Shown here piece after piece: positions 1 to 64,000 of a DNA stretch of 64,000 nt. A program made the translations under genes and the position numbers. The notes beneath the pieces were generated by a model, which worked only from the letters and a program-made list of their open reading frames with translations, had not been told where the DNA came from and made no database searches. The stretch's first letter is position 1, and every line of letters begins with the position of its first letter. Source of the stretch: Macrostomum lignano (Eukaryota); NCBI GenBank assembly GCA_002269645.1, contig NIVC01000446.1, positions 530,078 to 594,077 on the forward strand, in the 5' to 3' direction.

Positions 1-1381
1 TTTTTCAAATGCTGTGCTTTTTATTTTTTATATTTAAAGCAAACAACTTATATCCCCGAACTCAGCGTTGCAAGATCTTTCCAGCAATATAAGTCTCTCC
101 TCTCAAAGTTTAAAACTCGAGGAACAGTTAGCGTTTGAAATTTACCAATTTCCCGACTGCTTGACTGAGAGGCTCGCAAGTTTGTTCATTGAATTTCATT
201 GCCAAGCTAATACACAGGGCCGATAATAAAACCAATTGAATCTCGACACAGTCTATCTATTTACACTGTACAACTGCTATGTACACTCAGCCCAAGCCCT
301 ACCCCCGTTCTGGGAAAACCATTAAATTTAACTCAACCCACTCAATATGAAAATCAGTCTATAGCCCATGCACCTCCCCAAATGCACAGGGAGAGTCTAG
401 GCTTGTGCATTGCACAGTCAGAATTGAAATTAATGAAACCCCTCCCCAGCCACTTAACGTTTTCACAATTGAAATCAAGAAATTTTCTATGACAAATTGC
501 TCTGATGCAGTTGAGATTTCGGAACAGAAAAGTATACCATTCTGTTCAGTTTTTCAAACTCTTTCCAACGGTGTGATTCACTTTTCTGTAGCTTCAAAAT
601 TGAAAGCAGAAATTAAGGTGCAAGTTTTCCCGTTTCTTACTTACAGAGCGCAATGTACACTCGGAGTTAAAATCAAGCCAATCCATTCTCGCGCAGTGTG
701 CACCTCCACCCCATTTTAACACTGAGCAAGTAGGCAGGCCCGACCGCCGCCAACCAATTCTCGTCTCAAATGCCGGTACCCCTCCCACAGCTGAAATGAA
801 ATACACTGCAGAGATAGGAGAAAAGTTGTGGCGCAACCATACAAAATAGCGCCAAGTGGCAAGTCCATGGAATGCGATATATAGACATCTGGTTGTCTGG
901 TTTGTGCTGTTTTCTGCTTTTTTGAAGCACTTAAAATTGAAATTTGAAAATGAATTTTAAACTGTAGCATCGTCGGGACATTTGACATGTTTTGGTACCG
1001 GTTTGAAAGTTGAGTTGCAAGAATCCTAGGAGGAGATCGTCGACAAACCCGGCCCACCGGCCCACCCTACCACCGGACCACGACGTCAGCTTTAGTAAAG
1101 ACGAGGCCAACTCCTCCTTCGGAGGAGAAAGGGGAAGAACTCCCATCACCGGAATTCCATTCTCTGAAATTCATCAGCTGAATCCCATGACCCGAATCCC
1201 ATCATCCAACTGTTATCCAAATCTATCAAAATCCTTTCCGCGAAACTGAACACCATCGAAATCCTCTCCGCAAAACAGAAATCCTCTCCGTGAAACTGAA
1301 GAACATCGAAATCCTCTCCGCGAAACTGGACTCAATCAAAATTTTCTCCGTCAAAAAGAATAAAATATCAGGATTCATTGG

Positions 1382-1399
1382 TTAGGGTTAGGGTTAGGG
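1382..1399 (+). repeat. Interstitial telomeric tract (TTAGGG)3
   Basis: Three perfect TTAGGG plus TTAGAG, directly after GGATTCATTGG. Confidence 0.85.
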
Positions 1400-3229
1400 T
1401 TAGAGTTTGAGCTGCACAGAGCTGCGACTACAGGGCCCGATAAAAAATTGAGCTAATTGAATGTATAGATTGCACAATTTATTTCTCAGTCAGTCAGTAT
1501 CAGTTTCAGTGAAAGTTAACAAAAATACTGCGCAATCTAAATCAACCCTCTAATACACAGCGACCGACACCCCTTTTCAATACGCAGTGGCAGATAGAAA
1601 TTGAAGCCTCCCCCGCCTAACTGCTCGGGGTTCGGTTGAACGCCATTGAACCCGAAAATGAGTACAATCTTTGCAAATCGTTTGTTGGATGCTGTGCTTT
1701 AAGTTTTCATATTTAAAGTAAACAACTTATATCCCCGAACTCAGCGTTGAAAGATTTTTCCAGCAATATAAATCTCCTCTCTCAAAGTTTAAAACTCAAA
1801 GAGAATTTAGCGTTTGAATGATCCCGTTTTAAAGCATTGAAAAATCCAGTGTACGTGCACTGCGTACTAAAGAGGCTCGCAAGTTTATTCATTCATTTCA
1901 CAGGCTGGCTATAACACAGGGCAGCCTATTGAAAGGCAGAGATAATAAAACAAATTTATGGCGCAATCAATTTATTTCTCAGTCAGTCAGTAAGAGTCTC
2001 AATTAAAATGATCGCGCAATATAAATCAACCCTCCAATACACAGCGACCGCACCCCTCCCCCCCCCCCACTAAAGCACACTGAGCAATTAGAAATTCAAC
2101 CCTCGAACTTTATCTATTATGTCTCGCAAAAATGAGCACAACTTTAAAAAAAGTTAAAAGTATGAAAATAGTTTTTCGAATGCTGCGCCTTTTCTTTTCA
2201 TATTTGACTTGACTTGAGAAGCATCAGTTTATATGGAATTCAATCATAGGAGAGTTGAAAAATCAATGAGCTTTCGCTATTTGGACTGTGTACACTGCGG
2301 TAATTTATTTATTTAATCTCAATATTATCTCCAGCCAATCACTCAATATGAAAATCAGTCTATAGCCCATGCACCTCCCCAAATGCACAGGGAGAGTCTA
2401 GGCTTGTGCATTGCACAGTCAGAATTGAAATTAATGAAACCCCTCCCCAGCCACTTAACGTTTTCACAATTGAAATCAAGAAATTTTCTATGACAAATTG
2501 CTCTGATGCAGTTGAGATTTCGGAACAGAAAATTATACCATTCTGTTCAGTTTTTCAAACTCTTTCCAACGGTGTGATTCACTTTTCTGTAGCTTGAAAA
2601 TTAAAAGCAGAAATTAAGGTGCAAGTTTTCCCGTTTCTTACTTGCAGAGCGCAATGTACACTCTGTGATGAGTTAAAAAATCAAGCCATCCATTCTCGCG
2701 CAGTGTGCACCTCCACCCCTTTTTAACACTGAGCAAGTAGGCCGCCAATTCTCAAGTGCCGGCGACCCTCCCCCAGCTAAAATGAAATACACTGCAGAGA
2801 TAGGAGAAAAGTTGTGGCGCAACCATACAAAATAGCGTCAAGTGGGAAGTCCATGGAATGCGATATATAGACATCTGGTCTGGCTGTCTGGTTTGTGCTG
2901 TTTTCTGCTTTTTTGAAGCACTTAAAATTGAAATTTGAAAATGAATTTTAAACTGTAGCATCGTCGGGACATTTGACATGTTTTGGTACCGGTTTGAAAG
3001 TTGAGTTGCAAGAATCCTAGGAGGAGATCGTCGACAAACCCGGCCCACCGGCCCACCCTACCACCGGACCACGACGTCAGCTTTAGTATATACGAGTGGA
3101 ACTCCTCCTCTGGAGGAGAAAGGGGAAGAACTCCCATCACCGGAATTCTGAAGGGGAAGAACTCCTATCAGCTGAAATTCCATGAATTGAATCCCATCTT
3201 CCAAATCATCTCCAAATCCTCTACAATCT

Positions 3230-4290
3230 ATCAACTCCCATCTCTCATCTCTTGCGCCCTGCGCTCTGATTTTTATTTTTACTCTCTTCTTTCTCCTCAC
3301 TAATTACTCCTCTCTACACTTTCATCTCTCTCATCTCTGATCTTTCATCTCTTTTCTCCCTCCTCTCTCCCTTCTCTCGCTTCTCTCTCTCCTCTATTCC
3401 TACTCTTCTCGCTTATCTCTTCTCTCTCATATCTCATCTCTACTCCCTTATTTATCTCTTCTCCCTCGCCTTTCGTCTGTACCCTCTCCTGTCTACTCTC
3501 ATATCTTCTCTCTTATCTCTCCCCTTTTCTCTCCTCTCTCATATCTCATCTCTACTCACTTATCTATCGTCTCCGCTCTACTTTCTCTCTTCCCTTTTCT
3601 CTCTTCTCTCTGCTTTCATTACTCGTATCTCTTATACGCTCTCACCCTCTCCTTTCTTATCTACCATCTTTCTTCCCTTTCTACTGCATCACCTGTCTCC
3701 TCTCCTCTCTTTTCTCTCCTCTCCATTCCCTCTTCTCTCCTCTTATCTCCCCTCATCTCTTCTCTAATCTCTCCTCTCTCCTCTCTCATATCTCTTCTCT
3801 ACTCACTTATCTATTCTCTCTCCCCTTTTACACTTTCCTATATGCTCTCACTCTCACCCTCTCCTTTCTTATCTCCTGTTTTTTTACACTCTTTTCTATC
3901 ACCTGTCTCCTCTCGTTTCTCTCCTCTCTGCACTCTCATCTTTACCCTCTTCTTTCTCCTCACTACTTTCTTCTCTTAAATCTCTGATCTCTGATCTTTC
4001 ATCTCTCTCCTCTCACCTCTCACCTCTCTCCTCTCTTTCCTCTCTTCTATTGCCTCTGTACGCTCTTATCCCTCCTTTCTTTTCTCTCCTGTCTCCTCTC
4101 TGCTATCTCATATCTCCTCTCTCATATCCTCTCCCTTCATCTCCTCTCTCCTCTTCTCTCTCCCTCTTCGTTCCCGCCTTACTCCCCTCTTCTCTCCCAT
4201 CTGTCATGTCTAATCTCTCCACTCATTTCTACTCTGTTTTCTATCATCTCATCTCTCTTCTCTTTTCATTCTTCTCTTTACTCTCTTCTC
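3230..4290. repeat. Polypyrimidine (CT-rich) low-complexity tract
   Basis: ~1 kb almost entirely C/T on the + strand. It produces spurious Leu/Ser ORFs. Confidence 0.9.
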
Positions 4291-4720
4291 TGACTGATTG
4301 AAGATGCCAAATCCATCAAGATCCTCTCCGCGAAGCAGAAAAATCCTGTCCGTGCAACTGAAAACCATCGAAATCCTCTCCGTGAAACTGGACTCCTTCG
4401 AAATCCTCTCCTTGAAACTTAAATCCATCAAAATGGTCTCCATAAAACAGAAATCAATCATAAATTATCTCCGCGAAACAGAAATCCTCTCCGTGAAGCT
4501 GAACATCATCGAAATCCTCTCCGTGAAACTGAACATCATCGAAATCCTTTCCACGAAAGTGAACGCCATCGAAATCCTCTCCACGAAACTGAACACCATC
4601 GAAATCCTCTCCACGAAACAGAAATCCTCTTCGTCAAAATTAAAACATTGAAATCGTCTCCGCTAAACTGGACTCAATCGAATTTTTCCGTCAAACAACT
4701 CAACTCTCCGGATTCATTGG

Positions 4721-4744
4721 TTAGGGTTAGGGTTAGGGTTAGGG
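4721..4744 (+). repeat. Interstitial telomeric tract (TTAGGG)4
   Basis: Four perfect TTAGGG plus TTAGAA after GGATTCATTGG. Confidence 0.9.
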
Positions 4745-6379
4745 TTAGAACTACGCACAGGTTTGTGTTAAAAGGCACCGATAAAAATATTGAACTAATT
4801 GAATCAATTCATTGCGCAACTGATTTCACAGTCAGTCAGTCAATCTAAATTAACCCTCCAATACACAGCAGCAGTGAGAAGTTGAACCCTCCCCCAACTT
4901 TATCTATTACGTCTCGCAAAACTGAGTACAATTTTTGCAGAAAGTTAAAAGTATGGAAATAGTTTTTCAAATGCTGTGCTTTTTCTTTTCATATTTAAAG
5001 CAAACAACTTATATCCCCGAACTCAGCGTTGCAAGATCTTTCCAGCAATATAAGTTTCTCCTCTCAAAGTTTAAAACTCGAGGAACAGTTAGCGTTTGAA
5101 ATTTACCGATTTCCCGACTTCTTGCTAGAGAAGCTCGCAAGTTTATTCATTGAATTTCACTGCCCAGCTAATACACAGGGCCGATAATAAAACCAATTGA
5201 ATCTCGGCACAGTTCTATCTATCTTTTTACACTGTACAACAGCTATGTACACTCAGTCCAAGCCCAACCCCCCGTTACGGGGGAAGCATTAAATTTAACT
5301 CAACCCGCCAACACGCGGGGGGTTTTATTTGCATTGAACGTAGAACACGCGCACCCACCACCCCTCAATACACAGCGGCCCGCGGGCGGAGGTTGGGGTG
5401 GCTATTTTTACAAACTGGCTGAAGCCCCAGGCAGAGTGGCAAAAGAAGGTTATTGGGGGTCAAAAAAGCAGTTTACACTGCGGTGATTCATTTATTTAAT
5501 CTCAATATTATATCTAGGCTTGTGCATTGCACAGTCAGAATTGAAATTAATGAAACCCCTCCCCAGCCACTTAACGTTTTCACAATTGAAATCAAGAAAT
5601 TTTCTATGACAAATTGCTCTGATGCAGTTGAGATTTCGGAACAGAAAATTATACCATTCTGTTCAGTTTTTCAAACTCTTTCCAACGGTGTGATTCACTT
5701 TTCTGTAGCTTGAAAATTAAAAGCAGAAATTAAGGTGCAAGTTTTCCCGTTTCTTACTTGCAGAGCGCAATGTACACTCTGTGATGAGTTAAAAAATCAA
5801 GCCATCCATTCTCGCGCAGTGTGCACCTCCACCCCTTTTTAACACTGAGCAAGTAGGCCGCCAATTCTCAAGTGCCGGCGACCCTCCCCCAGCTGAAATG
5901 AAATACACTGCAGAGATAGGAGAAAAGTTGTGGCGCAACCATACAAAATAGCGTCAAGTGGGAAGTCCATGGAATGCGATATATAGACATCTGGTCTGGC
6001 TGTCTGGTTTGTGCTGTTTTCTGCTTTTTTGAAGCACTTAAAATTGAAATTTGAAAATGAATTTTAAATTGTAGCATCGTCGGGACATTTGACATGTTTT
6101 GGTACCGGTTTGAAAGTTGAGTTGCAAGAATCCTAGGAGGAGATCGTCGACAAACCCGGCCCACCGGCCCACCCTACCACCGGACCACGACGTCAGCTTT
6201 AGTATATAGATAGACGAGTGGAACTCCTCATTCGGAGGAGAAAGGGGAAGAACTCCCATCACCGGAATTCCATTCCCTGAAATATCCATCAACTGAAATT
6301 CCATGTCTTGAACCCTATCTTCCAAATCGTCTGCAAATTCTTTACAAACCTTTCAAGGACCATAGCTCAAAGACTCTTA

Positions 6380-7245
6380 CGTCTCTCATATCTCCTCTCT
6401 CCTCTCTTAACTATTATCGTGACTCTCTTCTCTCTCCTCTCTCTCATCTCATCTCTACCCCTACTCTCTTATTTATCTCTACTCTCTACTCCTTGTCTAT
6501 CGTCTCTCTTAACCCTCTCTCTCTTCTCTTTTCTCTCCTCTCTGCTCTCATTTTTCATATCTCATATACGCTCTCACACTCTACTTTCTTGTCTCCCATC
6601 TTTCTTTCCTCCTTTCCACTATTCCCTGTCTCTTCTCTTCTCTCTTTTCTATTCTCTCTATTCTCTCTTTTCTCCTCTCCTTGCTCCTTTCATCTTCTCC
6701 CCTCTCTTCTCTAATCTCTAATCTCTTCTCTCTTATGTTCTCACTCATCTCTTCTCATCGCATCTCTCATCTCTCCTCTCCTCACTACTTTCCTCTCTTA
6801 ACTCTCTCATCTCTGATCTTTCATCTCTCTCCTCTCTCTCCTCTCATCTCTACTACCTTATTTATATCTTCTCTCTGGTCTTTCGTCTCTACTCTCTCCT
6901 GTCTCATTTCTCCTCTCTTTTCTCCTCTCTTCTCTCTCCCCTCCTCTCTTATCTCTCCTCCCTCATCTCACTCTTTCTTTCTCCTCTACTCTCCTTTCTC
7001 TTTTATTTCCTCTGTACGCTCTTATCCCTCCTCTCTTCTCTCTCCTATCATCTCTCTTGTCTCCCTCTGCTATCTCATATCTCCCCTCTCATCTCCTCTC
7101 TCCTCTTCTCTTCTCTCCCCTTCGTTCCCGCCTTACTCCCCTCTTCTCTCCCATCTGTCATGTCTAATCTCTGCACTCATTTCTACTCTGTTGTCTATCA
7201 TCTCATCTCTCTTCTCTTTTCATTGTTCTCTTTACTCTCTTCTCT
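6380..7245. repeat. Polypyrimidine (CT-rich) low-complexity tract
   Basis: Diverged homologue of 3230-4290 in the next subunit. Confidence 0.9.
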
Positions 7246-7652
7246 GAGTGATGAAGATGCCAAATCCATCAAGATCCTCTCCGCGAAGCAGTCTGTGCAA
7301 CTGAAAATCAAAATCGTTTCCATAAAACAGAAATCAATCATAAATTATCTCCGCGAAACAGAAATCCTGTCTGTGCAACTGAAAACCATCGAAATCCTCT
7401 CCGTGAAACTGGACTCCTTCAAAATCCTCTCCTTGAAACTTAAATTTATCAAAATCGTCTCCATAAAACAGAAATCAATCATAAATTAACTCCGCGAAAC
7501 AGAAATCCTCTCCGTGAAGCTGAACATCATCGAAATCCTCTCCACGAAACAGAAATTCTCTCCGTCAAAATTAAAACATTGAAATCGTCTCCGCTAAACT
7601 GGACTTAATCGAATTTTTTCCGTCAAACAACTCAACTCTCCGGATTCATTGG

Positions 7653-7682
7653 TTAGGGTTAGGGTTAGGGTTAGGGTTAGGG
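7653..7682 (+). repeat. Interstitial telomeric tract (TTAGGG)5
   Basis: Five perfect TTAGGG plus TTAGAA after GGATTCATTGG. Confidence 0.9.
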
Positions 7683-10600
7683 TTAGAACTGCGCACAGGT
7701 TCGTGTTAAAAGGCACTGATAAAAATATTGAACTAATTGAATCAATTCATTGCGCAACCGATTTCACAGTCAGTCAGTATCAGTCTCAGTTAAAGTTAAC
7801 AAAAACATTGCGCAATCTAAATCAACCCTCCAATACACAGCAGCAGTGAGAAGTTGAACCCTCCCCCCAACTTTATCTATTACGTCTCGCAAAACTGAGT
7901 ACAATCTTTGCAGCAAGTTAAAAGTATGGAAATAGTTTTTCAAATGCTGTGCTTTTTATTTTTTATATTTAAAGCAAACAACTTATATCCCCGAACTCAG
8001 CGTTGCAAGATCTTTCCAGCAATATAAGTCTCTCCTCTCAAAGTTTAAAACTCGAGGAACAGTTAGCGTTTGAAATTTACCAATTTCCCGACTGCTTGAC
8101 TGAGAGGCTCGCAAGTTTGTTCATTGAATTTCATTGCCAAGCTAATACACAGGGCCGATAATAAAACCAATTGAATCTCGACACAGTCCTATCTATTTAC
8201 ACTGTACAACTGCTATGTACACTCAGCCCAAGCCCTACCCCCGTTCTGGGAAAACCATTAAATTTAACTCAACCCACTCAATATGAAAATCAGTCTATAG
8301 CCCATGCACCTCCCCAAATGCACAGGGAGAGTCTAGGCTTGTGCATTGCACAGTCAGAATTGAAATTAATGAAACCCCTCCCCAGCCACTTAACGTTTTC
8401 ACAATTGAAATCAAGAAATTTTCTATGACAAATTGCTCTGATGCAGTTGAGATTTCGGAACAGAAAATTATACCATTCTGTTCAGTTTTTCAAACTCTTT
8501 CCAACGGTGTGATTCACTTTTCTGTAGCTTCAAAATTGAAAGCAGAAATTAAGGTGCAAGTTTTCCCGTTTCTTACTTACAGAGCGCAATGTACACTCGG
8601 AGTTAAAATCAAGCCAATCCATTCTCGCGCAGTGTGCACCTCCACCCCATTTTAACACTGAGCAAGTAGGCAGGCCCGACCGCCGCCAACCAATTCTCGT
8701 CTCAAATGCCGGTACCCCTCCCACAGCTGAAATGAAATACACTGCAGAGATAGGAGAAAAGTTGTGGCGCAACCATACAAAATAGCGCCAAGTGGCAAGT
8801 CCATGGAATGCGATATATAGACATCTGGTTGTCTGGTTTGTGCTGTTTTCTGCTTTTTTGAAGCACTTAAAATTGAAATTTGAAAATGAATTTTAAACTG
8901 TAGCATCGTCGGGACATTTGACATGTTTTGGTACCGGTTTGAAAGTTGAGTTGCAAGAATCCTAGGAGGAGATCGTCGACAAACCCGGCCCACCGGCCCA
9001 CCCTACCACCGGACCACGACGTCAGCTTTAGTAAAGAGAGAGGAGGATTGTAAGACAATTAGCGCCTGAAAAATGAGCACTCGCAGATCGTGACCTACTA
9101 TTTTAGCTAAATCAACTATTATAGTTACAGAACCCAAAAGGAGATTATAAAAAGTACGTCGTAGATACGATCGACTTTTGTACTCGGCTGGTGTATAGTA
9201 ATTGCCATCTGACTTTTATGAGATATTGCGCGATTCTTTAGCTGAGCTCCCGCGTTGCAAAAATTGGCACGATTTTGTACAAAAATAATCATCCATATTA
9301 TTCGTCAAAGTTGATCCTTTTCTAGGTAATGTAATGAAAAAAATATAAGTTTCGACAGACAAGTATATTGCCAATATTTTAATTGATTTTAAAGTGCGCA
9401 AACTAAAGGCTTCATACATTTACACTTACGAAACGGTATAAAAGTAGTGCATATAAAGCCACTAAGCATAATTAATCAGCGCTAGCAAGGAAAAAAGCAT
9501 AAAAATTTCCGTTATTAATTAAGCCTCAATAAAAAAGCGGGTGTCTACTAAAAATAGTAAGGAAAGCGTATGGAGAGCAGTTTTTTACTAAAAAAATCGT
9601 TGAAAAATATTAAATGGACAGTATAACAATTTTAAACGTACTACGTACACGTACGAGCATAAGAGTACATAAGCGGATAATGCACTGATATATGAAATAT
9701 TTTCAGAAGTCTCTCAGGCCACACTATTAATGTACAAAACTTAAAATACACCAGAAACCAAAAGAAGGTTTGTTATTATACAGTACACAGGTAATTGATG
9801 ACTTATGAGCCAAAATGTGGCAAGAGAATTAAAATATTGCTCCACATAATATCTTTTACACAATATCTATACATACACTTATTCATACATCCATACTTCC
9901 AGGCCGTCAACCCCCCTCCCTCAAGCGTCAGACTCTTGCGACACAACCCTATGGTTCCATTCCGTGCCCGGCCACATTCATTTGAGACTAATTGCAGGAG
10001 TGCGCGAAAATCGGCCCTGGGGGGGGGGGGTTGAGATTCACAGCCATGAGGGACAACCTCTAAAGACACAGAGATTGTATTGAGTACATGCCTGACGATT
10101 TGACAGTCAAAGGGCCGCATGTACACCCTGTGTGAGCGTGTGTATGAGTGCGTATGAGTGATTATAAAATGACTATTCATAATAAGAAATCACCAGATAG
10201 ATAAAATATTAAAAAATAGACATTAAAAACAAAGTTGACATTGAGATTACAAGTTTATTAGGCAATTAGCTTCTGGACTTAATATAATCGTAGCTATTAA
10301 GCTTCACAAAAATGTTTAGCGATAGCTAATAGCAGTAGGACTAGAAGAAAAAATTCTGAACCGATGCTAATTAATGCCACTTATAACTTGCCACTATTTT
10401 CGTATGCAACACGAATTAGGTGTAAAAAATAGGTTAATTGATAAATGGCTCAGGTAAAAGATACAGATTCATCTTTTTACGAAGTCAAAGATACACACTT
10501 AAATTGAATAACTATACAATATAACATATCATAAGTTAGAAATGGTCTGGTTGATTTATATCAACCAGATAAATAATAATAAATAAGAAGCTTGTTAACA

Positions 10601-53917: not shown

Positions 53918-54070
53918 CCTTTTCTCTCTTGCTCGCTATGCATACGCACTGGATTTGGCTTTTTTTAAGTTTTCCTGCAATCTTCTATCTTAAAATGATT
54001 TCGTTTTAAATATTTTTGAGTCTGGGGAAACCTACGCTCGTAGATTCGGTGAAATAGAATAAAGATGTGA

Positions 54071-56281
54071 TGTAACCACGCTCTGGTCGCGGGATAGGGC
54101 ATGGGAACTTTTTCGAAAGTGCCTCCTATCCCGTGCACCCTCTGCACAGAGCTGTCGAGACTCGGCCAGGTCTCCGCCCGGGCCTGGAGACTCCCGCTCT
54201 GCTGCACCCCTCCTGCTGCCTTGGTCCCGTCTCTCCTGCCGCCACACCTGCCTTTCCGGAGCCCCTACCCCTTTCTGTACCTCCCCCTCTACCCTATCTC
54301 TTCTGTTCCCGCCCTATTCTTCCTGTACTTTCTCTACCTCCTCCCTTTTTTTGTCTCCCTCTGCACTCTTTTCCTGCGCTGTCCCCTCTTTCCCTGTGTC
54401 TACTTACAGTACTTTGTGTGCTCACCGTCTCCCCATCCCCTCTCAAACTCCCAAACGGTGACGCAAGTCGTGTGACCCCTTCTCCCCCTCGGTGACTCAT
54501 CGATGACTCATCCCCCTCTCTTGCGCAACCTTTTCTCACGCTATTGTTCTCCTTCCCAAATTTCTCATGTGACACCCACCCCACCTCCGCTTCTATTGTT
54601 CTCGTTTTTGCTTCTTTTGTTCTCTCGACCCCCACCAATTATCACATTTTCTCCGGTTTTCTCTTTCTTTTGTTCTCGTTTTCGCACCTAATTATCACCT
54701 TTTCTCCAATGTTTACTTTTCCATTGTTCTCAGTTTTCCCCAATTATCCCCGATTTCCAATTCCTTTGTTCTCGACCCCAGCCCTATTGTTCTCAATGTT
54801 TGCTTGCGCAACACTTTCGTGACCACCCGCTGCGCCAATTATCCCCCCACCCCACCTCCGGATTGCGCAATTTCCCGATTTCTCATGTTGCTATGCCGGT
54901 CTCGTGCTTCTCATCATGACTCATTCTGACGTCATTCTGCCGGCAGCCAATCAGAGAGAGGGAGCCATGGTAACGACCTTGAGGAGGCGGCTGTGAGGTC
55001 TATAAAAGGAAGCGATTTCGGCATGAGAATACTCAACTGAGTTTATCTCTGTTCCTCTCCTCGTCCTTCTTTGGACTTGCTGTCAGATTGAGTTCTGACC
55101 CATTCGTCTATAAGACGAATCCCTGCCGGCCCGCGGTCTGTTACCGCCAAGTTATCCTTAGCTCCCCAAGTGAGCTCGCCTATCGGCCAGCGGTCTGATA
55201 CCGCCCCGCATCATCAGCATCGCCTGATCTACATCAGCGCCTCGTCGCTCCAGCGCATCGCCGCTTCACCGTCTGCCTGACTGCAGCCTACAGCCGCCCT
55301 CGGTCACTCCGCCTCTCTCTCTCTCTGTGCAGCTGCCGGTAAGTTCCTACTACTAATTTGTGCTCTAATTGCCTTTGCTTATCCGGGGTTTGCCTATTTT
55401 CCATTGTCTGATTAGAGAGCTGAGCCAATTGTGATACCGTATCTTTTGCTGTATTTTACTCAATAGTGAAGCCGCCTAATTGCCTGCTTATTTGCCTAAG
55501 GGCCTAATTATTAACTATTAACTAACTTCATCATTATTCAATCTTTCACCATCATTTCACTCATGGCTTGCTAAGCCTTTCTCCCGGGGTGGCAAAGCAT
55601 AAGGAAGTTTGGGTAAGCTAATGGCCTCTCCCCGTGCAAAGCCCGCCTGTGAGGGCGTGCTGCGGGGCCGCGTGTGCGTGCAGTAGAGGGATTAGCGAGT
55701 CTTGGCACAGAATGGCAGTAGGAAGGTTGCACCCCATGCTAACGCGTCCCTTCGCCCTGAGCAATCTAAACTGTAGACAGTACATGTTCGCCTCATACTA
55801 CTCTTAGTAATCAAAGTCGCAAGTCAGCCTCGCTCACAGCCACAAAGGATCCCCTGCTGAGAAATCCTCCAGGATTGAGCCCAGAGTTCCCGATCATGCC
55901 CCAAGCAGAGTCCCTGTACTCGGCTGCATGCGTCTCCCCTGTTAGCCTAAATCCCCTGGTAACCAATCCAGGCGGGGCTCTAGCCTCGAGAGGTCTGGTA
56001 GAAAGATCCAGGTGCGCCAGGTCACATAGAGTGGTGGCAGCCACTCGGTCATACTATGACCGAGTGACCAACTATTGCACCTTGGCTACAGGTGGGGTCC
56101 ATGTGGGTCCTTGGCCCTCTGGTCACGAAGCGCTACCAAAGCTACTAATCATGTGGGCGGGACAGTCTGGTGCTGGAGGTCCGTCAGGTCATTGCCCGGT
56201 CATAGGCAGCCTACGGTCATTGCCCCCTCTAGTCATGCGTTCGTCTCTCTACGGAGCGGACAGGCGACAAGGGCGGTTACA
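54071..56281 (+). repeat. 5' LTR, 2211 bp
   Basis: Starts TGTAACC and ends GGTTACA (7-bp inverted termini). It is followed 6 nt later by the PBS and contains CCAAT and TATA. Confidence 0.85.
54493..55007 (+). promoter_or_regulatory. LTR U3 enhancer/promoter
   Basis: TGACTCA at 54493, 54504 and 54917; TTGCGCAA at 54521, 54804 and 54863; TGACGTCA at 54927; CCAAT at 54947; TATAAAA at 55001. Confidence 0.7.
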
Positions 56282-56287
56282 TCAAAA

Positions 56288-56305
56288 TGGTGGCAGCGGT
56301 GGGAT
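56288..56305 (+). promoter_or_regulatory. Primer binding site, tRNA-Leu (AAG/UAG family)
   Basis: TGGTGGCAGCGGTGGGAT is the exact 18-nt complement of the conserved metazoan tRNA-Leu 3' end AUCCCACCGCUGCCACCA. Confidence 0.9.
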
Positions 56306-58656
56306 CTGGTGCAAACAGCGCTGAGTTTCGGACTGGTGGTTTAGATGTGACAAGCGCACCTGTGGCATCCCTCAGAATGGTGGCCGAAGCGCAAAGAGTG
56401 CCATGTCTAAATCTACCAATCGTAAAAATCGCCAATCGTCATTCTCTTCTCCCATGGCGTGAGGCAACAAAATCCAAAAATATTAATGTAACTTTTCAAA
56501 TTTTTCGGGCTGCGAATTCGTTCAATTCATTCGAAATTTCCAAATTCATTCATTCGCCAAAAGCCCCTGATTCAATTTAAAATTAATTTAGCCGATCAGT
56601 TTCAGCGCTAGAAAGTGTGAAGTGGTAGACGAGCGGATTTGATTACAATCAGAATAGCTACCTGGTAACGGAGTGTGTGAAGAACTGCGAAAGTGAATTT
56701 TCCGGACTCACTTTCTATTTCATGGTAATATGCTTTATTTCCCCTCCCTTTCTTTCTCTCGCCTAGCCTACAGCAGAACTGTGTGAGTGTTGAGGTGGAC
56801 AGCCAGCCAGGTACGGAAGCCTCATCACGCAAGCACAGGGAAGCTGGAAGCGAAGCATTTCTTTCCTTTGTCCTACCTCTTTCTTTTACTCGGGGAGTGT
56901 AACGGTCGCTCTCCCTGATCGCTCAGTTAATCCTAGAAATGCGTAGAGACCGGAGCGTGTTTTGTTTGTCCATTAGAATGAACAGCTATCAAGGGCTATG
57001 GGGAACTCGCTATATATGCATAGTAAGGGAAGCAGTAGTCATGGCCTTGGAAACATTGGGGGATACCAAAGTCTCGCAGGAATGGGAATAGCGGTGTGAT
57101 TGTATCTCTGTAGGGTATCAGTGTGACTCAAAAATCTCGGGCTAAAAAAAGTGTCACCTCCTATGGAATACCTGCGATCAGCCCGGACCTGAATTCTGCG
57201 GTAACCCCTGGTGCCTTCATGGCTGGGATTCGATCCCAACGTGTCTGCTGACTCTCCCCACTGTATTGCAGACCCGGTAGTAACTGCTTTGGTTGCATTT
57301 GGGCTGGTGCAGTGGCTGGGAATAGTAGATCCCATAGTATCCTATTGATAGTGGAGTTCAGTGAGTATTGGAATGGTGTACTGGAAGCCTGGTGGCCCCC
57401 AGTGATCTCGTAATGTTTCCTGCTGCATTCTCCTCCTTTAGTAATTCCTCCCCCCTGCTGTCAGTCTGATAGGGGAGGTGGGTGTGCCAATCAGCCCGAC
57501 CCGGTAGAACGGCGCTCCTGCCCGACTTGTCAGCCTGGCCCAGGAAGGCGCTATTGCGCAACTCTTTTCCCCTCTGGCCACTGCAGCCCACTAAGCGCTT
57601 AGACGCAGGGTTGCATGCAGTCCCCTAATGTAAAGCCCCGGTACATAGAGTGCCACCCCGGTGCCCCGCAAGGTCAATAAGACGGGTTGACGTCTCTGGC
57701 AACTTGGAATAACCTAGATGGAGGTACCGCTGTCTCCTGGTAGAACCGGGCGTTCAAGTACAGTAAAGTGGAGAGGCTGACAACTGTAGGACTTTCTCCG
57801 CCATCAGATAAAGGTCCCAAGTATGCTATTTCGAGCTGCAGCAAAGGTGGAGTATCGGAGGGGCAAGCATTTCAGGAAGATACTCACTTAGGTCTGTTTA
57901 TCCTAGGAAAGCGGGCGAGAGTTTCAGGCTTGTAATCCGCCTAACCTGAAAACTTCGGGGACAGTTTAGTCTGGACTCCCGCTGCGCGCCTTCGCTCTGA
58001 ACAGAAGGGGGAGGTCTTGGTTTTTGTGGATTCTGCTAGACGTAGGGGAGCTGGATTCCCGCCTTTTGTGAAGCTGCGTGTACAAGATTGGTAGTCCTGA
58101 GGTGGAAGCCCCACTGGACTCCGACGGTTTTCCGGCTGTGCAAGGGCAGTAAAGTGGGAGGACCTCCATGGGGATTGCTCCCGCCACTTGGGTTTTTGGG
58201 TCCAGGCGCCAACGCTTCTTCGTAGTAGCTTTCTTAAGGAAATGGGGCCCGGCGCGCAACCCTAGGGGAGAATTTGTACAGGTGCCGTAAGTCCGTTTAC
58301 GGTCGGCATTTGGGTTCCCTAGCATGGCCGCAAAATGAAGGTCAAGTCTCTCTGAATAGCCAATTTTTCCCTGTCAGGATGTGCCATAGACAACTGGTAG
58401 TGGTAGCCGCAGTTTGAGTCAGTGTGCTTTGCCGAGTGAAGCCGTTAGGACTGCCTAAATGGAATTATGTGGAGCCACCCGTTTTTCAATTTGTTTTCTT
58501 CGACGCCGCAAGTGTGTGAGTTTTGTCTGTGTTTGTGTGTACGTGAGTGTGTTTGTGTGTTTCGGGTCAACTTTTCGGTCTTTACCTGTAGTTGCCCCGG
58601 TTTTCTTTTCTTTTCCTTCCCGGTAGTGGGTACTCCCCCAGCTATCCGGCATTCAC

Positions 58657-60138
58657 ATGTCACGGGCGCGTGGAGATAGGGTCGTAGAAGCTGTGTGCGC
58701 AGACGCCCCTGGTCAACCACCCTCGGCCGCTGACACCCCAGCAGTTGCCGCCCCCGCAGCCGCAATGGCCGCAGCCGCTGGTAACCAGGTCCCTCAGCCT
58801 CCAGAAGCAGTAGTAGTTGAGGAACCAGATGAAGGAGTAGCAGCTCCCGCTCCCAATCAGGGTGGCGCAGCAGCCGCCGCTGCTCCCCCGGACGCAGCCC
58901 AGAATCCTCCTCAGGCAGTCCCGCAGCTAGGAGACTTAGTTGCCGCTATAGCCAATGCGTTTAACCAGCTAAACATGGGCCAAGAAGCTCAGAGGCCGAA
59001 AATCTACGTAGAGAAGTTCTCTCCCGGCGAACACTGTTTTGTGCAATGGGTAGAGAGAATGATCTACAAGCTGGACGCGGAGAGAACTGTAGGAGATCAG
59101 GCTAGGAAGCAGGTGCTCATCTCGCACCTCCCAGGTGAATTTCAGAACTTAGCCTTAGGATTGGACGGGCAATTGCCCTTTGAGCAGTTCGTATCTAGAT
59201 TAGGAGAGCAGTTGGGCGAGGCCAACACTGATCTGGCTAAGAGAAATAAGCTGAAGAATCTGAGCCAGAAACCCGGCCAATCACATAGTGCTTTTGCTGC
59301 TATGATAAGATCTCAGATAACGGCCATGTTTCCTCAGATTCAGGGTGAGCAGAGAGAACAAGAAATCGTGTACACCTACTTGGAACACGCTAAGCTCCCC
59401 CGCCAGGTCAGACAAGATCTGTTGAGCCGTCGCTGGCAGACAATTGAGCAGGTGTTAGAACAGCAGCAAGCCCTGTTAGAAGCCGCAGACTTAGCCGGGA
59501 AATGGGACAGTAGTGGCCCGCCCAGGTCTGAGTCCCGCACCGAAGTCCGTCTGCAACCTCAGCAGCCACCCAGGCCCCCTCGCAAGTGGGTCAGGATGGT
59601 GAACCAGGAAGCTGACGAGACGGAGGAGGACGGTGACGGCCTATCAGAGATGCAAGAGAGGTTGGGCGCGCTAGAGCAAACGCAAAAGGATCTGCGCAAC
59701 CAGCTGGTGCAGCTCAATGAAACTATGAAGGCGACAGCAGAGTCTGTTGCCCAGCTGCCCCAGCAGATGAGGCCCCCTCGCCCCGCCACTCCCAACAGGA
59801 ACTGGAGGCAGGGGCAGGGCGGCTCTAATAGCAGTAGGAACTGGCGCCAACCCCAGCCCCCGCCGCTTGCAATTCAGGAGGCGCCCACGCCGCCGGCGCC
59901 GGGTGTGCAGCAGCAGCAATTGCAGCTTCGTGCGCCACCTGATCGCCATAGGCAAGATTTAGAGGAGTGGGGCAGAGATATGTTAGACGAGGCTACCAGG
60001 GAGAGGCAGGAGAGGCTCGCCCAGCTGCGCGCGCAAGCTCTGATGCCTCCTCCTTCCACGCCTGAAGAGCCCCGGGTTCGGGAAACCCGTGGGAGGGCTG
60101 AATGGCCCGGCCCGAACTCAGCCCCGTTCCCTCTCTAG
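58657..60138 (+). CDS. gag: Ty3/Gypsy-type Gag (capsid domain plus coiled coil, no CCHC knuckle)
   Basis: Capsid-like KFSPGE..FVQWVERM...ARKQVLISHL...FEQFVSRL and MHR-like LKNLSQKPGQS..AFAAMIR...MFP, positioned downstream of LTR and PBS. Confidence 0.85.
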   Translation: MSRARGDRVVEAVCADAPGQPPSAADTPAVAAPAAAMAAAAGNQVPQPPEAVVVEEPDEGVAAPAPNQGGAAAAAAPPDAAQNPPQAVPQLGDLVAAIANAFNQLNMGQEAQRPKIYVEKFSPGEHCFVQWVERMIYKLDAERTVGDQARKQVLISHLPGEFQNLALGLDGQLPFEQFVSRLGEQLGEANTDLAKRNKLKNLSQKPGQSHSAFAAMIRSQITAMFPQIQGEQREQEIVYTYLEHAKLPRQVRQDLLSRRWQTIEQVLEQQQALLEAADLAGKWDSSGPPRSESRTEVRLQPQQPPRPPRKWVRMVNQEADETEEDGDGLSEMQERLGALEQTQKDLRNQLVQLNETMKATAESVAQLPQQMRPPRPATPNRNWRQGQGGSNSSRNWRQPQPPPLAIQEAPTPPAPGVQQQQLQLRAPPDRHRQDLEEWGRDMLDEATRERQERLAQLRAQALMPPPSTPEEPRVRETRGRAEWPGPNSAPFPL

Positions 60139-60142
60139 GGCC
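60080..60142 (+). promoter_or_regulatory. -1 ribosomal frameshift signal (slippery heptamer plus predicted pseudoknot)
   Basis: GGGAAAC at 60080-86; an 8-nt spacer; stem GGGCTGA (60095-101) with TCAGCCC (60118-124); loop GGCCC complementary to GGGCC (60138-142). Confidence 0.7.
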
Positions 60143-60604
60143 CAGCTTAACCTGCCACGTCCGCCCAGCAAGAAGTTTAGATTTGAGAAGGTACCCGATT
60201 TCTATCAGCCAAGACCAGCTAGAGGACAACGCGGGAGAGATATTGTTGTAGAGTTGCCAATTGAGAATGTTCCCACCCGCCTCCTGGTAGATGGGGGCAG
60301 TGCGCTGTCTTTGCTAACAGTCAAAGACTTTACTAAAATTACCGGACAGAGTGTGGAGGCCCTGGAGCCCCCATGTGTGAAGGCCGTGTCCTACACGGGC
60401 AATGAATTAGAGATGCTAGGCCAGGCCACCCTCACAGCAGTTATTGGGCTAGAAGAGGTGAGAATCCTCTTTCTGGTCGTTGGCAATTCAGCAGCAGTTT
60501 CCCTCCTGGGTAGTGCTTTTCTAGCCAGTACGCATGCTATCATAGACTATCGAACAGAAAAGGTTTACTTGCTAGGTGTGAGTCTCCCATTCGACCCCCG
60601 CTGA
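60089..60604 (+). CDS. Retropepsin-type aspartic protease, stand-alone, ends in a stop
   Basis: VELPIENVPTRLLVDGGSALSLL (LVD[TS]G position), AVSYTGNELEMLG (flap) and SLLGSAFLASTHAIIDY. TGA at 60602-04. Confidence 0.82.
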   Translation: MGGLNGPARTQPRSLSRAQLNLPRPPSKKFRFEKVPDFYQPRPARGQRGRDIVVELPIENVPTRLLVDGGSALSLLTVKDFTKITGQSVEALEPPCVKAVSYTGNELEMLGQATLTAVIGLEEVRILFLVVGNSAAVSLLGSAFLASTHAIIDYRTEKVYLLGVSLPFDPR

Positions 60605-61192: not shown

Positions 61193-62886
61193 TCAGCAGT
61201 TGGGAAGCCGCAGAAATAGCTCCAAGAGCAGTAGCCAGTGCATTGTGAGACCGGCTATTAGGGCCGTCGACAGCACGACCAAATGCCAGGAGCCGTCGGT
61301 CTCCACCACAGGGGTTGGCAAGGGCTGTGGAGCGGCAGCCACGGGCGTCACCGCGGCGACCGGCGGCGGAGCGTGCGCTCGGGCTGACAACGGCGGTGGT
61401 ACCGGATGCCAACCGGCCCCGGACGCTGGTTCGCTGGCGGCCCGGCGGTCGCATGGCCCGGGAGCCGCGGCGCCTATGTCACCAGATGGCGCAGCCGGCC
61501 CAGAATCAGAGGGGGCGTCCGGCTCTGAATGGCTGTCTTCGGGCGCTTCGTAGTCGGACTCCTCTTCAAGGATGGGCTCGGCTACTAGCGGCCGGAATCC
61601 TGAAAATGAGGATTTAAGGGATGAAATAGAAGTAGGGAACTAGCCGGGTATTAGGATGTAGATAGATGGGGATTTTAACTTTATGGCGTGTGGTAGTGGC
61701 CTTCCTGGGGGTTTCTTCCTTTCTTCATTCCCTCTCCTTCCTTGAGCTCTAGGTGATCAAGTAGTGGTAGCCTTCTTCCCCGCCTTCTTTTAATGATACA
61801 CCTCTAAGGATGGCAGTTTTTCGTCTTCCTCTCCTCTGGTAGAAGGGCAAATAGTGGCAGTTTCCCCGGGCAATCCACTCTAATTGGTGACGGGTTCCCT
61901 CTTTCTCTTCCCTGTTAATGTACAATTGGTGGCAGTTTTCCCTAGCAACCTCTCTCAAAATGGTGGCTGATCCTCCTTTTCTTTTCTTTGGTAATGCGCC
62001 AAGATGGTGGTAGGTTCCCCTTTCTCTTTTATAATAGTACATCAAACTGGTGGCAGTCAAATTAATGATTAATTCCTCTTTCGAATTCTTTCGGCTGTTA
62101 AGTTTATGAGGGTCTCGGAGGCATGGATGAGAACTGCGTGCGCGTGGCGTTGAAGGAAGAAATCGAAGGGAGTTGGGCCGCATCATCATTTATCCTCCGG
62201 AGTCTAATCTCCAAATCCCTCTTCTATTCATATTAACCAAATTAATTTGTGTGCCTGATCTGAATGTGTGCATGTGAGGTGGGAGTGCGATCTCTGTCGG
62301 CTGGAGTACGGATCTGCCGCGGGCGCGACCGGAGGTGGTCTCGGGTCTGCCCCTTCTTCTCACAGGTGAGGAAACAGGAAGCGGCGGAACCAGCCAATCA
62401 GAGCGCACGGAGACTAGAGCGAGCGGTCCAAGCCAACGGCGACCCCGGCCGCAGCAGGTGTGCCTCCCAATGTGCTCAACCAATGGAAGCCAGCCCGGCA
62501 CTATAAGAAGACCCACGCCTGCCAGAGCTGGAAATCATCAATCAGAGAAATCATTCTGTCCTTCAATCGCTGAAGCATTCTATGAACTATCCAGCTTGAC
62601 ATGGACACGAAGTCTACCATCAATCGAATTCAGCTATGCTCCAGCTTACCGTCTGAGCGTCCTGCCAGCCCAGTTAGCGAAAGCGGCCCGTGACGCCATC
62701 CAAGAGGCGGAGGACGGCCCGAGCCGCCAGCGGCGGCCTCCGCCAGGGTCGAAGAAGGTGACGAGACAATCGACCCGGCCAATGCTGGGGCGACACCGCG
62801 GACATTTCGGACCGCGGCAATTCGGCGAGGCGGCCGCCGCCGCTGCGTGATGTTCTGCCCAACAGCCGCCGAAGTGTGACATCGCC
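61193..62886 (-). CDS. Putative antisense spliced ORF with acidic/Pro-Ala-rich body and C-terminal TM helix (partial)
   Basis: Terminal exon 61599-61193 (acceptor CATTTTCAG; FRPLVAEPILEEESDYE...WHLVVLSTALIAGLTMHWLLLLELFLRLPNC*). Candidate upstream exon 62886-62650 (acceptor CTCTTTGCAG, donor G|GTAAG) is open in the matching phase 1. Confidence 0.45.
61762..62056 (+). repeat. Array of eight LTR-end/PBS-like motifs, each followed by a pyrimidine tract
   Basis: TGGTGGCAG-like 9-mers at 61762, 61808, 61852, 61885, 61927, 61961, 62005 and 62048. Confidence 0.7.
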
Positions 62887-64000
62887 CTGCAAAGAGAAGA
62901 AGTCGATTGGGGTCAGGTGGCTGGCGAACCTTCGGCGACAGCTATGGATCTGGTGCACTGGGTCGGCCTGAGTCCTATCATGGCCCACTCCAGGCCGAGG
63001 ACAGGCATGCGACTCTAGAGCGCCAACTTCGCGACAACCTGGACCGGCCTGTCTGCTCATCCTGTCAAAAGCGGCCCTGCTGGGATGGTTGACAATACAG
63101 CTGTTAATGTACATCGAGGCAGCGGCCCAGAGCGCTACAAATACGCCCTCGGCGACCTAGTCCGGCAGGCCGCCAAGTTCCTCCGCAAGGTTGTGGATGA
63201 GGAACCATCACACCTGACAGCCCGGCCGCCGTCCTGTGCCCCCATCACAGCAATCTTCAGCACCTGCGAACGGCCGGTCTACAAGAAGGTGATCATCAGC
63301 TGCGCAGCCTCCTCTCAGATGACTAGACAACTGACACCAACCCAGAAGCCCGGCTATTGATTGGCCTGGCCAGCTTGGGCCAGCGCTGGGGCATGCTTCC
63401 TGCGGACCTGCCAGGGTGCTCTGGGGCTTCCTGAGCGAGGGCGCCGAATGGGAAGAGGCTCTCGTCATCCACGACGGCATTCTTGCGGCCTCCGCGCCGG
63501 CCTCTGCGCCCCTCCTCTATGCGCCGTTTGCCACAGTGGCCTGGGCCGCCACTCTCTCGCAACGTTCAATCGCCGCTGTGGGGGTGTTGGCGGCCCTGGG
63601 CGACGTTGAGCCGGCTACGCGGGCCTGGCGAGGTGCCCGTGGCACTTTGCAGCATTTTGCAATCGCGCAGCCGCCCCTGTCTGCACCAACTCTGACACGG
63701 CTGCAACAAGTACGGAATGCGGCCTTCGTCGTCCAATGCCAAGCCCTGGGCATCCCGACTCTGCCGCAGTTGAGGGCGTGCTGCGAACGACATCTTGCCT
63801 AGCGATGGCACCGAGTGGTGCTCACGGCCGCGGCAGCAACGTTATGTGGAAGCATGGCAAGTGCCATGGCTCAGGTGGCGGCATATGGCCGTACCAGCTA
63901 AATCAAGAGGCCCATTTCGAGTAAGGATGCTGACTGCCTGCTGAGCGACGTCCGCCGGCCGGTCCGACCCGCCTTTCGCCCCCTTGCGTTGTGTGTTTGT

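What the first reader, a model, noticed from the sequence alone, without database searches (positions are those of the whole stretch)
61762..62056. Internal array of LTR-end/PBS mimics (possible tRNA-Leu fragment decoys or extra priming sites)
Seen: eight TGGTGGCAG-like motifs at 33-46 nt spacing, each followed by a pyrimidine run. The last, TACATCAAACTGGTGGCAG (62038-56), matches the element's own LTR-end/PBS junction TACATCAAAATGGTGGCAG (56278-96) at 18/19. Others keep TACA-AT-TGGTGGCAG (61921) or TCAAAATGGTGGC (61955). Known: 3'-CCA tRNA fragments repress LTR elements through the PBS. Inference: the array could sponge tRF-3 Leu, offer secondary tRNA annealing or integrase-end sites, or be a relic of repeated template switching. 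The pyrimidine runs read as polypurine tracts on the minus strand.
Basis: partly seen in the sequence, partly recalled or inferred. Interest (0 to 1): 0.72.

Follow-up and report, generated by a model that had tools for sequence, protein, structure and literature searches.

The report
Repeated half primer sites in retrotransposon
A helper-dependent jumping gene carries, far from its start, eight worn tandem copies of its own repeat end plus half of its tRNA primer site, which likely arose as copying slips and may be kept as weak extra docking sites for the primer, while a role as decoys for silencing tRNA fragments looks unlikely.

Summary
The array is real: eight motifs 33-46 nt apart, the last matching the element's own LTR-end/PBS junction at 18/19, far beyond chance. 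It lies in the non-coding 3' part of a young non-autonomous (gag-protease only) Ty3 element. Its autonomous partner shares LTR and PBS but has no array. The spacers are homologous, so this is a decayed tandem repeat; it keeps only the LTR end and the first 9 PBS bases. Junction copies are clade-wide here: 17 of 17 tRNA-Leu-primed loci carry extra half or whole PBS copies upstream of the PBS, and a sister gag-protease family has one internal mimic of its own junction. The array sits inside a spliced antisense intron. Evidence for selection is mixed: none among young copies, p=0.026 among diverged ones, and 16 of 16 gag-selected copies keep 5-7 units. A tRF decoy is disfavoured (no seed match, at most half the PBS binding energy); minus-strand PPTs and YY1 sites are unsupported. 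Best reading: a reverse-transcription by-product likely kept as auxiliary primer-docking sites (0.38); neutral relic 0.30. The scan noted in-LTR junction arrays once before, in another genome.

The parts
54068..56284 (+). 5' LTR, 2217 bp, with 10-bp inverted ends; TATA box at 55001
   Evidence: Matches the 3' LTR of other copies at 97-99.9%; 4-bp target duplications in 5 of 6 copies with both ends
56032..56041 (+). In-LTR half-PBS (10-nt complement of the tRNA-Leu 3' end), 256 nt upstream of the PBS
   Evidence: a counterpart within 330 nt upstream of the PBS in 17 of 17 Leu-primed loci tested, absent from the one non-Leu-primed LTR checked
56278..56296 (+). LTR-end/PBS junction 19-mer that the array mimics
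56288..56305 (+). Primer binding site, 18 nt, tRNA-Leu(AAG/TAG)
56326..56338 (+). 13-nt box complementary to tRNA-Leu(AAG) positions 39-51 (likely a second part of the PBS)
   Evidence: longest block in 300 shuffles was 9 nt
58657..60138 (+). gag ORF; first ~70 codons shared with the autonomous partner, the rest only 27% identical to it
   Evidence: Retrotrans_gag look-alikes at score 0.94-0.95
60044..60604 (+). Aspartic protease ORF overlapping the end of gag in another frame; no RT, RNase H or integrase follows
   Evidence: weak PF13975 match, E=0.023, below the curated cut-off; complete copies show no room for pol
61600..62649 (-). Antisense GT-AG intron that contains the whole array
   Evidence: Joint seen in contigs of 3 of 4 runs guessed to be RNA; joined form not found in the genome or in 227 loci
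61762..62056 (+). Array of eight half-PBS units with pyrimidine-rich spacers (decayed tandem repeat)
62038..62056 (+). Unit 8: 18/19 copy of the element's own junction, preceded by a pyrimidine tract ending in TAG
   Evidence: at least 18/19 in 52 of 55 spanning copies
62247..64000 (.). GC-rich optional segment, missing in several copies; holds the antisense donor; origin not identified
   Evidence: no Pfam match for the 4 ORFs tested

Best explanation
The array is a decayed tandem repeat whose unit contains the end of the element's own LTR and the first nine bases of its tRNA-Leu primer site, likely seeded by a template-switching slip during reverse transcription and likely kept as weak auxiliary docking sites for the primer on the genomic RNA. 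Shown: the match to the own junction, homologous spacers, unit-wise gain and loss between copies, loss of the second PBS half in every unit, absence from the autonomous partner, and many junction copies inside the LTRs of other Leu-primed families. Inferred: (1) a junction copy was written into the 3' non-coding region and then amplified with a pyrimidine-rich spacer; (2) each unit can pair 7-10 bases with the tRNA-Leu acceptor end, and unit 8 can pair about 18 bases with the tRNA-cDNA joint of the nascent minus strand, so the array would hold primer or early cDNA near the 3' part of a helper-dependent RNA; (3) stopping at nine bases would limit harmful internal priming. Origin from the junction is about 0.85 likely; the docking function is the uncertain part.
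For: 18/19 junction match against a shuffle maximum of 14. Spacer pairs 2-4, 4-7, 4-6, 6-7 and 3-5 beat all 300 dinucleotide shuffles; 21 pairs were tested and about half are not significant. In 19 units from three lineages, matches to the junction are high from -3 to +9 (9-19 of 19, lowest at -1) and fall to 0-3 of 19 at most positions of the second PBS half. 16 of 16 spanning copies among 20 picked by gag, not by the array, keep 5-7 units although neighbouring DNA is often deleted. A sister gag-protease family (46% gag identity, unrelated LTR) has one internal mimic of its own junction, with its own 2-nt spacer, after a pyrimidine tract, in 9 of 14 fetched stretches, and it also ends at PBS base 9. 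17 of 17 Leu-primed loci carry an upstream half-PBS (expected <=0.04 each), 11 of 17 carry two or more; the non-Leu family checked has none. One insertion (assembled twice) has unit 6 extended to 12 PBS bases at a deletion joint, as expected if tRNA or PBS sequence was copied there. Ty1 and Ty3 prime from 10- and 8-nt acceptor-stem sites, and Ty3 uses tRNA sites at both RNA ends (PMC4974528, passages).
Against: The autonomous partner uses the same LTR and PBS with no array (10 of 10 pol-bearing loci without a cluster in the stretch fetched), so it is not needed for reverse transcription. Young copies show no extra conservation of motifs (5/72 vs 13/223). The diverged-copy test is ascertained, non-independent, and not significant for either copy alone (p=0.054 and 0.20). 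Several motif changes break tRNA pairing (units 1, 2, 4, 6). The array has no extended complementarity to the tRNA body (7 nt; 168 of 300 shuffles reach it), unlike the real leader. Predicted unpaired probability of the motifs is only 0.19-0.52. Two sister-family copies with 99.4-99.8% identical LTRs lack the mimic. The extended unit 6 is a single event and could come from microhomology plus a variant unit.
Confidence: 0.38

Rival explanations
1. Neutral relic: a junction copy was captured once and expanded as an ordinary minisatellite in a repeat-rich genome; it now decays and does nothing.
For: Tandem pairs of this 9-mer occur 1613 times genome-wide, and a dinucleotide-permuted control 1639 times, so such arrays are common here. 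No motif excess in young copies. The helper lacks it. Unit number varies from 5 to 8.
Against: No spanning copy has lost it (55 of 55; 16 of 16 unbiased). An equally truncated own-junction mimic sits after the protease in the sister family. Motif substitutions are half those of spacers in diverged copies.
Confidence: 0.3
2. Protein-binding array: CAAA(A)TGGTGG repeats are recognised by the element's own Gag on RNA (packaging) or by a transcription factor on DNA, for example for the antisense promoter.
For: The most conserved letters are A at -3 and the TGGTGG core, which includes bases upstream of the tRNA-pairing part. The array occurs only in the elements with the divergent gag. The region folds worse than all 100 shuffles on both strands.
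Against: A YY1-type core is not met (T in 19 of 19 units where C is expected; consensus recalled). No genome-wide excess of the motif in tandem. No binding data.
Confidence: 0.18
3. Decoy for 3' tRNA-Leu fragments that would otherwise silence the element through its PBS.
For: Units pair with the 3' half of the fragment. 3'-tRF repression can be seed-independent (PMC12853362, passages).
Against: No seed match; duplexes -10 to -19 kcal/mol against -39 at the PBS. In the same preprint sites with extra mismatches gave weak or no repression. The half that would make a good decoy is the half lost in all 19 units. 666 exact 18-nt PBS copies in the genome would be better sinks.
Confidence: 0.06
4. A row of plus-strand splice acceptors (pyrimidine tract plus AG) that places a new LTR end and half PBS at the start of a subgenomic RNA.
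For: Unit 8, several units of diverged copies and the sister-family mimic follow a pyrimidine tract ending in AG.
Against: No plus-strand joint into the array among the 4 joints listed for four runs, and contigs run through 61571-62105 unbroken (contigs drop rare forms, and 77 loose ends were not shown). No long ORF follows.
Confidence: 0.06
5. Minus-strand polypurine tracts or integrase-end sites of an opposite-strand replicon.
For: The pyrimidine runs read as purine runs on the minus strand, and an antisense transcript covers them.
Against: They lie in the intron removed from that transcript. No copy joins the true LTR end directly to an array unit. Integrase acts on DNA ends (established knowledge).
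Confidence: 0.02

Closest known systems
Retand/Tat plant Ty3 elements with tandem arrays and antisense genes between pol and 3' LTR (PMC11963269, passages)
   Same: Tandem array and antisense transcription in a long 3' non-coding region; non-autonomous members; array function unknown.
   Different: Animal element without pol; the unit is built from the element's own LTR end and half PBS; no conserved antisense protein was found.
Sirevirus multiple PPTs (PMC2829016, passages)
   Same: A short priming-related motif repeated in the linker upstream of the 3' LTR, role unclear.
   Different: The repeated motif is the minus-strand primer site, not the PPT; it is degenerate, includes the LTR end, and occurs only in the non-autonomous partner.
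Ty3 and Ty1 bipartite PBS (PMC4974528, passages)
   Same: 8-10 nt acceptor-stem pairing can be functional; Ty3 has tRNA-pairing segments in the 3' UTR.
   Different: Ty3's 3' segments pair with other arms of the same tRNA; here the same acceptor end is repeated, so one tRNA cannot use both sites at once.
HIV-1 tRNA-complementary motif in U3/R that aids minus-strand transfer (recalled; paper not held)
   Same: A short primer-complementary site near the 3' end proposed to tether the primer.
   Different: Single site pairing with the anticodon arm; shown by experiment, which is lacking here.
PBS-derived 3'-tRF target sites in mouse transcripts (PMC12853362, passages)
   Same: PBS-derived sequence away from a priming position.
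   Different: Those sites have extensive complementarity and confer repression; these keep nine bases or fewer.

Membership tests
Ty3/mdg4 LTR retrotransposon (element and partner) | LTRs with TG..CA ends and target-site duplication | tested here: met
   2.2-kb LTRs, 4-bp TSD in 5 of 6 copies
Ty3/mdg4 LTR retrotransposon (element and partner) | tRNA PBS after the 5' LTR, PPT before the 3' LTR | tested here: met
Ty3/mdg4 LTR retrotransposon (element and partner) | pol order RT-RNase H-integrase | tested here: met
   Met by the partner L101; the window's element has no pol and is non-autonomous
Ty3/mdg4 LTR retrotransposon (element and partner) | Placement in a named clade (Mag, CsRN1, Osvaldo/Gmr1) by RT tree | not tested
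Functional PBS (array units) | Complementarity to the tRNA 3' end of at least 8-10 nt | tested here: inconclusive
   Units 5 and 8 give 9 bp (10 with a wobble); others 7-9 with mismatches or wobbles
Functional PBS (array units) | Directly downstream of a full LTR | tested here: not met
   Only 10 nt of LTR end; no homology further up- or downstream (p=0.44, 0.45)
Functional PBS (array units) | Priming shown by cDNA ends or derived elements | tested here: inconclusive
   One insertion with unit 6 extended to 12 PBS bases; none for the unit-8 type
3'-tRF target or sponge | Seed match or long contiguous pairing | tested here: not met
3'-tRF target or sponge | Binding or de-repression in vivo | not testable with these tools
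   No small-RNA data served
YY1 site array | AANATGGC core (recalled) | tested here: not met
   T at the C position in 19 of 19 units; A before TGG in 9 of 19
Retrotransposon 3' tandem array (Retand/Tat type) | Family-specific tandem repeats between the coding region and 3' LTR with variable unit number | tested here: met
   Homologous spacers, 5-8 units; too decayed to appear among the 150 rows shown by Tandem Repeats Finder, 33 rows not shown

The most novel reading that the evidence does not exclude
Helper-dependent Ty3 elements multiply half primer sites on their RNA to capture tRNA-Leu or primer-bound early cDNA, and with it the helper's reverse transcriptase. The sites are kept matched to the current LTR end by template switching and held at nine bases to avoid internal priming. 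Together with the clade-wide junction copies in the LTRs, this would be a repeated tRNA-docking element that lets a parasite outcopy its helper.
Probability: 0.2. Interest if true: 0.75.

Novelty: new variant of a known kind. Interest (0 to 1): 0.5.

Why it matters
Tandem arrays in the 3' region of LTR elements are common and their origin and function are stated to be unknown (PMC11963269). Here the unit has a traceable source, the element's own priming junction, and the same genome shows every stage of junction duplication inside LTRs. That makes a general route from reverse-transcription slips to repeats testable. If the half sites bind the primer, they would show how a non-autonomous element competes with its helper, and would bear on how LTR elements balance priming against tRNA-fragment silencing.

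Tried and rejected
Searched for mini-elements joining the true LTR end to an array unit: none. Searched for unit-8-type sites extended to a longer PBS: none. Genome-wide enrichment of the motif in tandem looked strong against the tool's reversed control (1613 vs 54) but vanished against a dinucleotide-permuted control (1639). A common hairpin for all units: not found; the region folds worse than shuffles. Homology of unit 8's flanks to U5 or leader: none. An apparent echo of the leader's second tRNA box 40 nt after unit 8: not significant. A protein-coding cause for the repeat: the 146-codon minus-strand frame has no Pfam match and lies in the antisense intron. No run was on record as RNA (no RNA holder listed; kinds are guesses), so levels, strands and ends of transcripts were not measured; loose ends around the array and a DNA-run control for the joint remain unseen. 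Paper searches for repeated or duplicated PBS arrays found no description; subscription journals are mostly not searched. Supplements 2-5 of PMC12801592 were not read and may list the partner family. Three of 20 loci (L177, L183, L184) were left out of the 17-locus count because their true PBS is degenerate or ambiguous; L201 and L202 held no matching element sequence and L188, L207, L214 ended too early, so 55 of 60 were counted.

Full report
Setting. The window is the end of contig C446 of G000 (764 Mb, 5269 contigs). Earlier scan notes call the host the flatworm Macrostomum lignano (unchecked; the size agrees with my recall). The finding lies in an LTR element that runs off the contig. Other copies give the whole layout: 2217-bp LTRs with 10-bp inverted ends, a PBS at 56288-56305 that is the exact complement of tRNA-Leu(AAG/TAG) plus CCA, a long leader, gag, an overlapping protease frame, no pol, the array, an optional GC-rich segment, a 3' non-coding region and a PPT. 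Five of six copies with both ends have 4-bp target duplications. An autonomous partner with RT, RNase H and integrase shares window 54059-58866 at 98% and the last 0.8 kb before the 3' LTR, but its gag is 27% identical and it has no array.

Observation. Eight motifs start at 61762-62048, 33-46 nt apart. Five hits with at most one mismatch compare with 0.03 in 5000 shuffles, and the 18/19 junction match with a maximum of 14 in 100 shuffles. Units 1-7, not unit 8, are followed by pyrimidine runs.

What it is. Spacers are homologous to each other (pairs 2-4, 4-7, 4-6, 6-7, 3-5 beat all 300 shuffles; about half of the 21 pairs do not), and copies gain and lose whole units: 5 to 8 in 55 spanning loci of 60 fetched. 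So it is a decayed tandem repeat. In 19 units from three lineages the match to the junction covers the last few LTR-side bases and the first nine PBS bases; the second PBS half is absent in all. Unit 8 matches the junction at 18/19 in 52 of 55 copies; a diverged copy mismatches at a different base. Nothing beyond these 19 bases is homologous to U5 or leader.

Context in the genome. The exact 18-nt PBS occurs 666 times. Of 20 loci fetched, 17 had an assignable PBS and all 17 carry at least one half-PBS within 330 nt upstream (expected at most 0.04), 11 carry two or more. Several hold tandem units of LTR end plus PBS, from perfect to decayed, also in the 3' LTR. The one non-Leu family checked has none. 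I infer that plus-strand strong-stop DNA, which ends in LTR plus PBS (PMC6088434, passages), mis-anneals and duplicates the junction; this is not shown. A sister gag-protease family with another LTR has one internal mimic of its own junction, 14-16 of 18 bases, after a pyrimidine tract, in 9 of 14 stretches; two complete copies have deleted it and three stretches do not reach it.

Transcription. Contigs of 3 of 4 runs, RNA by guess only, skip 61600-62649 with GT-AG ends on the minus strand. The joined form was not found as DNA. The array is therefore in an antisense intron and, in PBS sense, on the genomic RNA. No plus-strand joint into it was listed.

Selection. For: all 16 spanning copies among 20 picked by gag keep 5-7 units; two diverged copies show 11/99 substitutions in motifs against 74/370 in spacers (p=0.026 pooled, 0.054 and 0.20 singly, and units were found by the motif). 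Against: 52 young copies vary at 5/72 motif and 13/223 spacer sites; the helper does without it; some changes break tRNA pairing. One insertion, assembled twice, has unit 6 extended to 12 PBS bases at a deletion joint, a hint that units meet tRNA or PBS sequence during copying; it is one event.

Mechanisms. tRF decoy: no seed match and at most half the PBS duplex energy; seed-independent repression exists but weakens with mismatches (PMC12853362, passages). YY1: the core is not met (consensus recalled). The motif is not enriched in tandem genome-wide (1613 vs 1639 for a permuted control), which also shows how easily such arrays arise here. Docking: units 5 and 8 pair 9-10 bases with the tRNA end, as long as the Ty1 and Ty3 acceptor-stem sites (PMC4974528, passages), and unit 8 pairs with the tRNA-cDNA joint at about -30 kcal/mol using RNA parameters as a proxy. 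I put docking at 0.38, neutral relic 0.30, protein binding 0.18, decoy 0.06, splice acceptors 0.06, PPT or integrase sites 0.02.

Known versus new. Tandem arrays with antisense transcription in the 3' region are known from Retand elements, with origin and function unknown (PMC11963269, passages); repeated priming motifs from Sireviruses (PMC2829016, passages). The survey of this flatworm's LTR families starts from RT and would miss this element (PMC12801592, parts 1-2 of 6 and supplement 1 read). PMC3601003 (passages) mentions no PBS repeats. Six searches found no description of arrays built from LTR end plus half PBS. Verdict: a real feature and a new variant of a known kind, with a traceable origin and an unproven function; interest 0.5.

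Noticed in passing
L168-L187, LTR 3' parts: Many tRNA-Leu-primed Ty3 families carry tandem copies of their own LTR end plus PBS inside the LTR (35-86 nt units). In 7 loci a full 18-nt PBS copy is present in the 3' LTR as well. Probably the more general finding.
   Followed up: partly
window 56032-56041 and equivalents in L168-L187: A half-PBS of 9-11 nt lies 80-320 nt upstream of the PBS in unrelated LTRs, often able to form a small hairpin; absent from the one non-Leu family checked.
   Followed up: partly
L172, L174, L177, L181, L182: By eye, the in-LTR full PBS copy is followed by a conserved stretch that could pair back onto it and mask it; not folded or tested.
   Followed up: no
window 56306-56338: Extra boxes complementary to tRNA-Leu(AAG) positions 38-44 and 39-51 just after the PBS, like a multipartite PBS.
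   Followed up: partly
window 54068-58866 vs L100/L102: The element is a chimera: LTR, 2.4-kb leader and first ~70 gag codons from the autonomous partner, then a gag-protease from another lineage; it outnumbers the partner (55 copies spanning the array against 10 pol-bearing loci seen, both lower bounds in a redundant assembly).
   Followed up: partly
L030 2300-2430 (3' non-coding region, beyond the window's end): Minus-strand TATA box and splice donor, shared with the autonomous partner; a likely start of the antisense RNA. Start not mapped.
   Followed up: no
window 62247-64000: Optional GC-rich segment with broken reading frames; in three copies replaced from 62496 on by another sequence with integrase-like frames by eye.
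   Followed up: no
window 1-9000: Three to four near-identical units about 3 kb apart, each with CT-rich tracts; three carry short GGTTAG runs.
   Followed up: no
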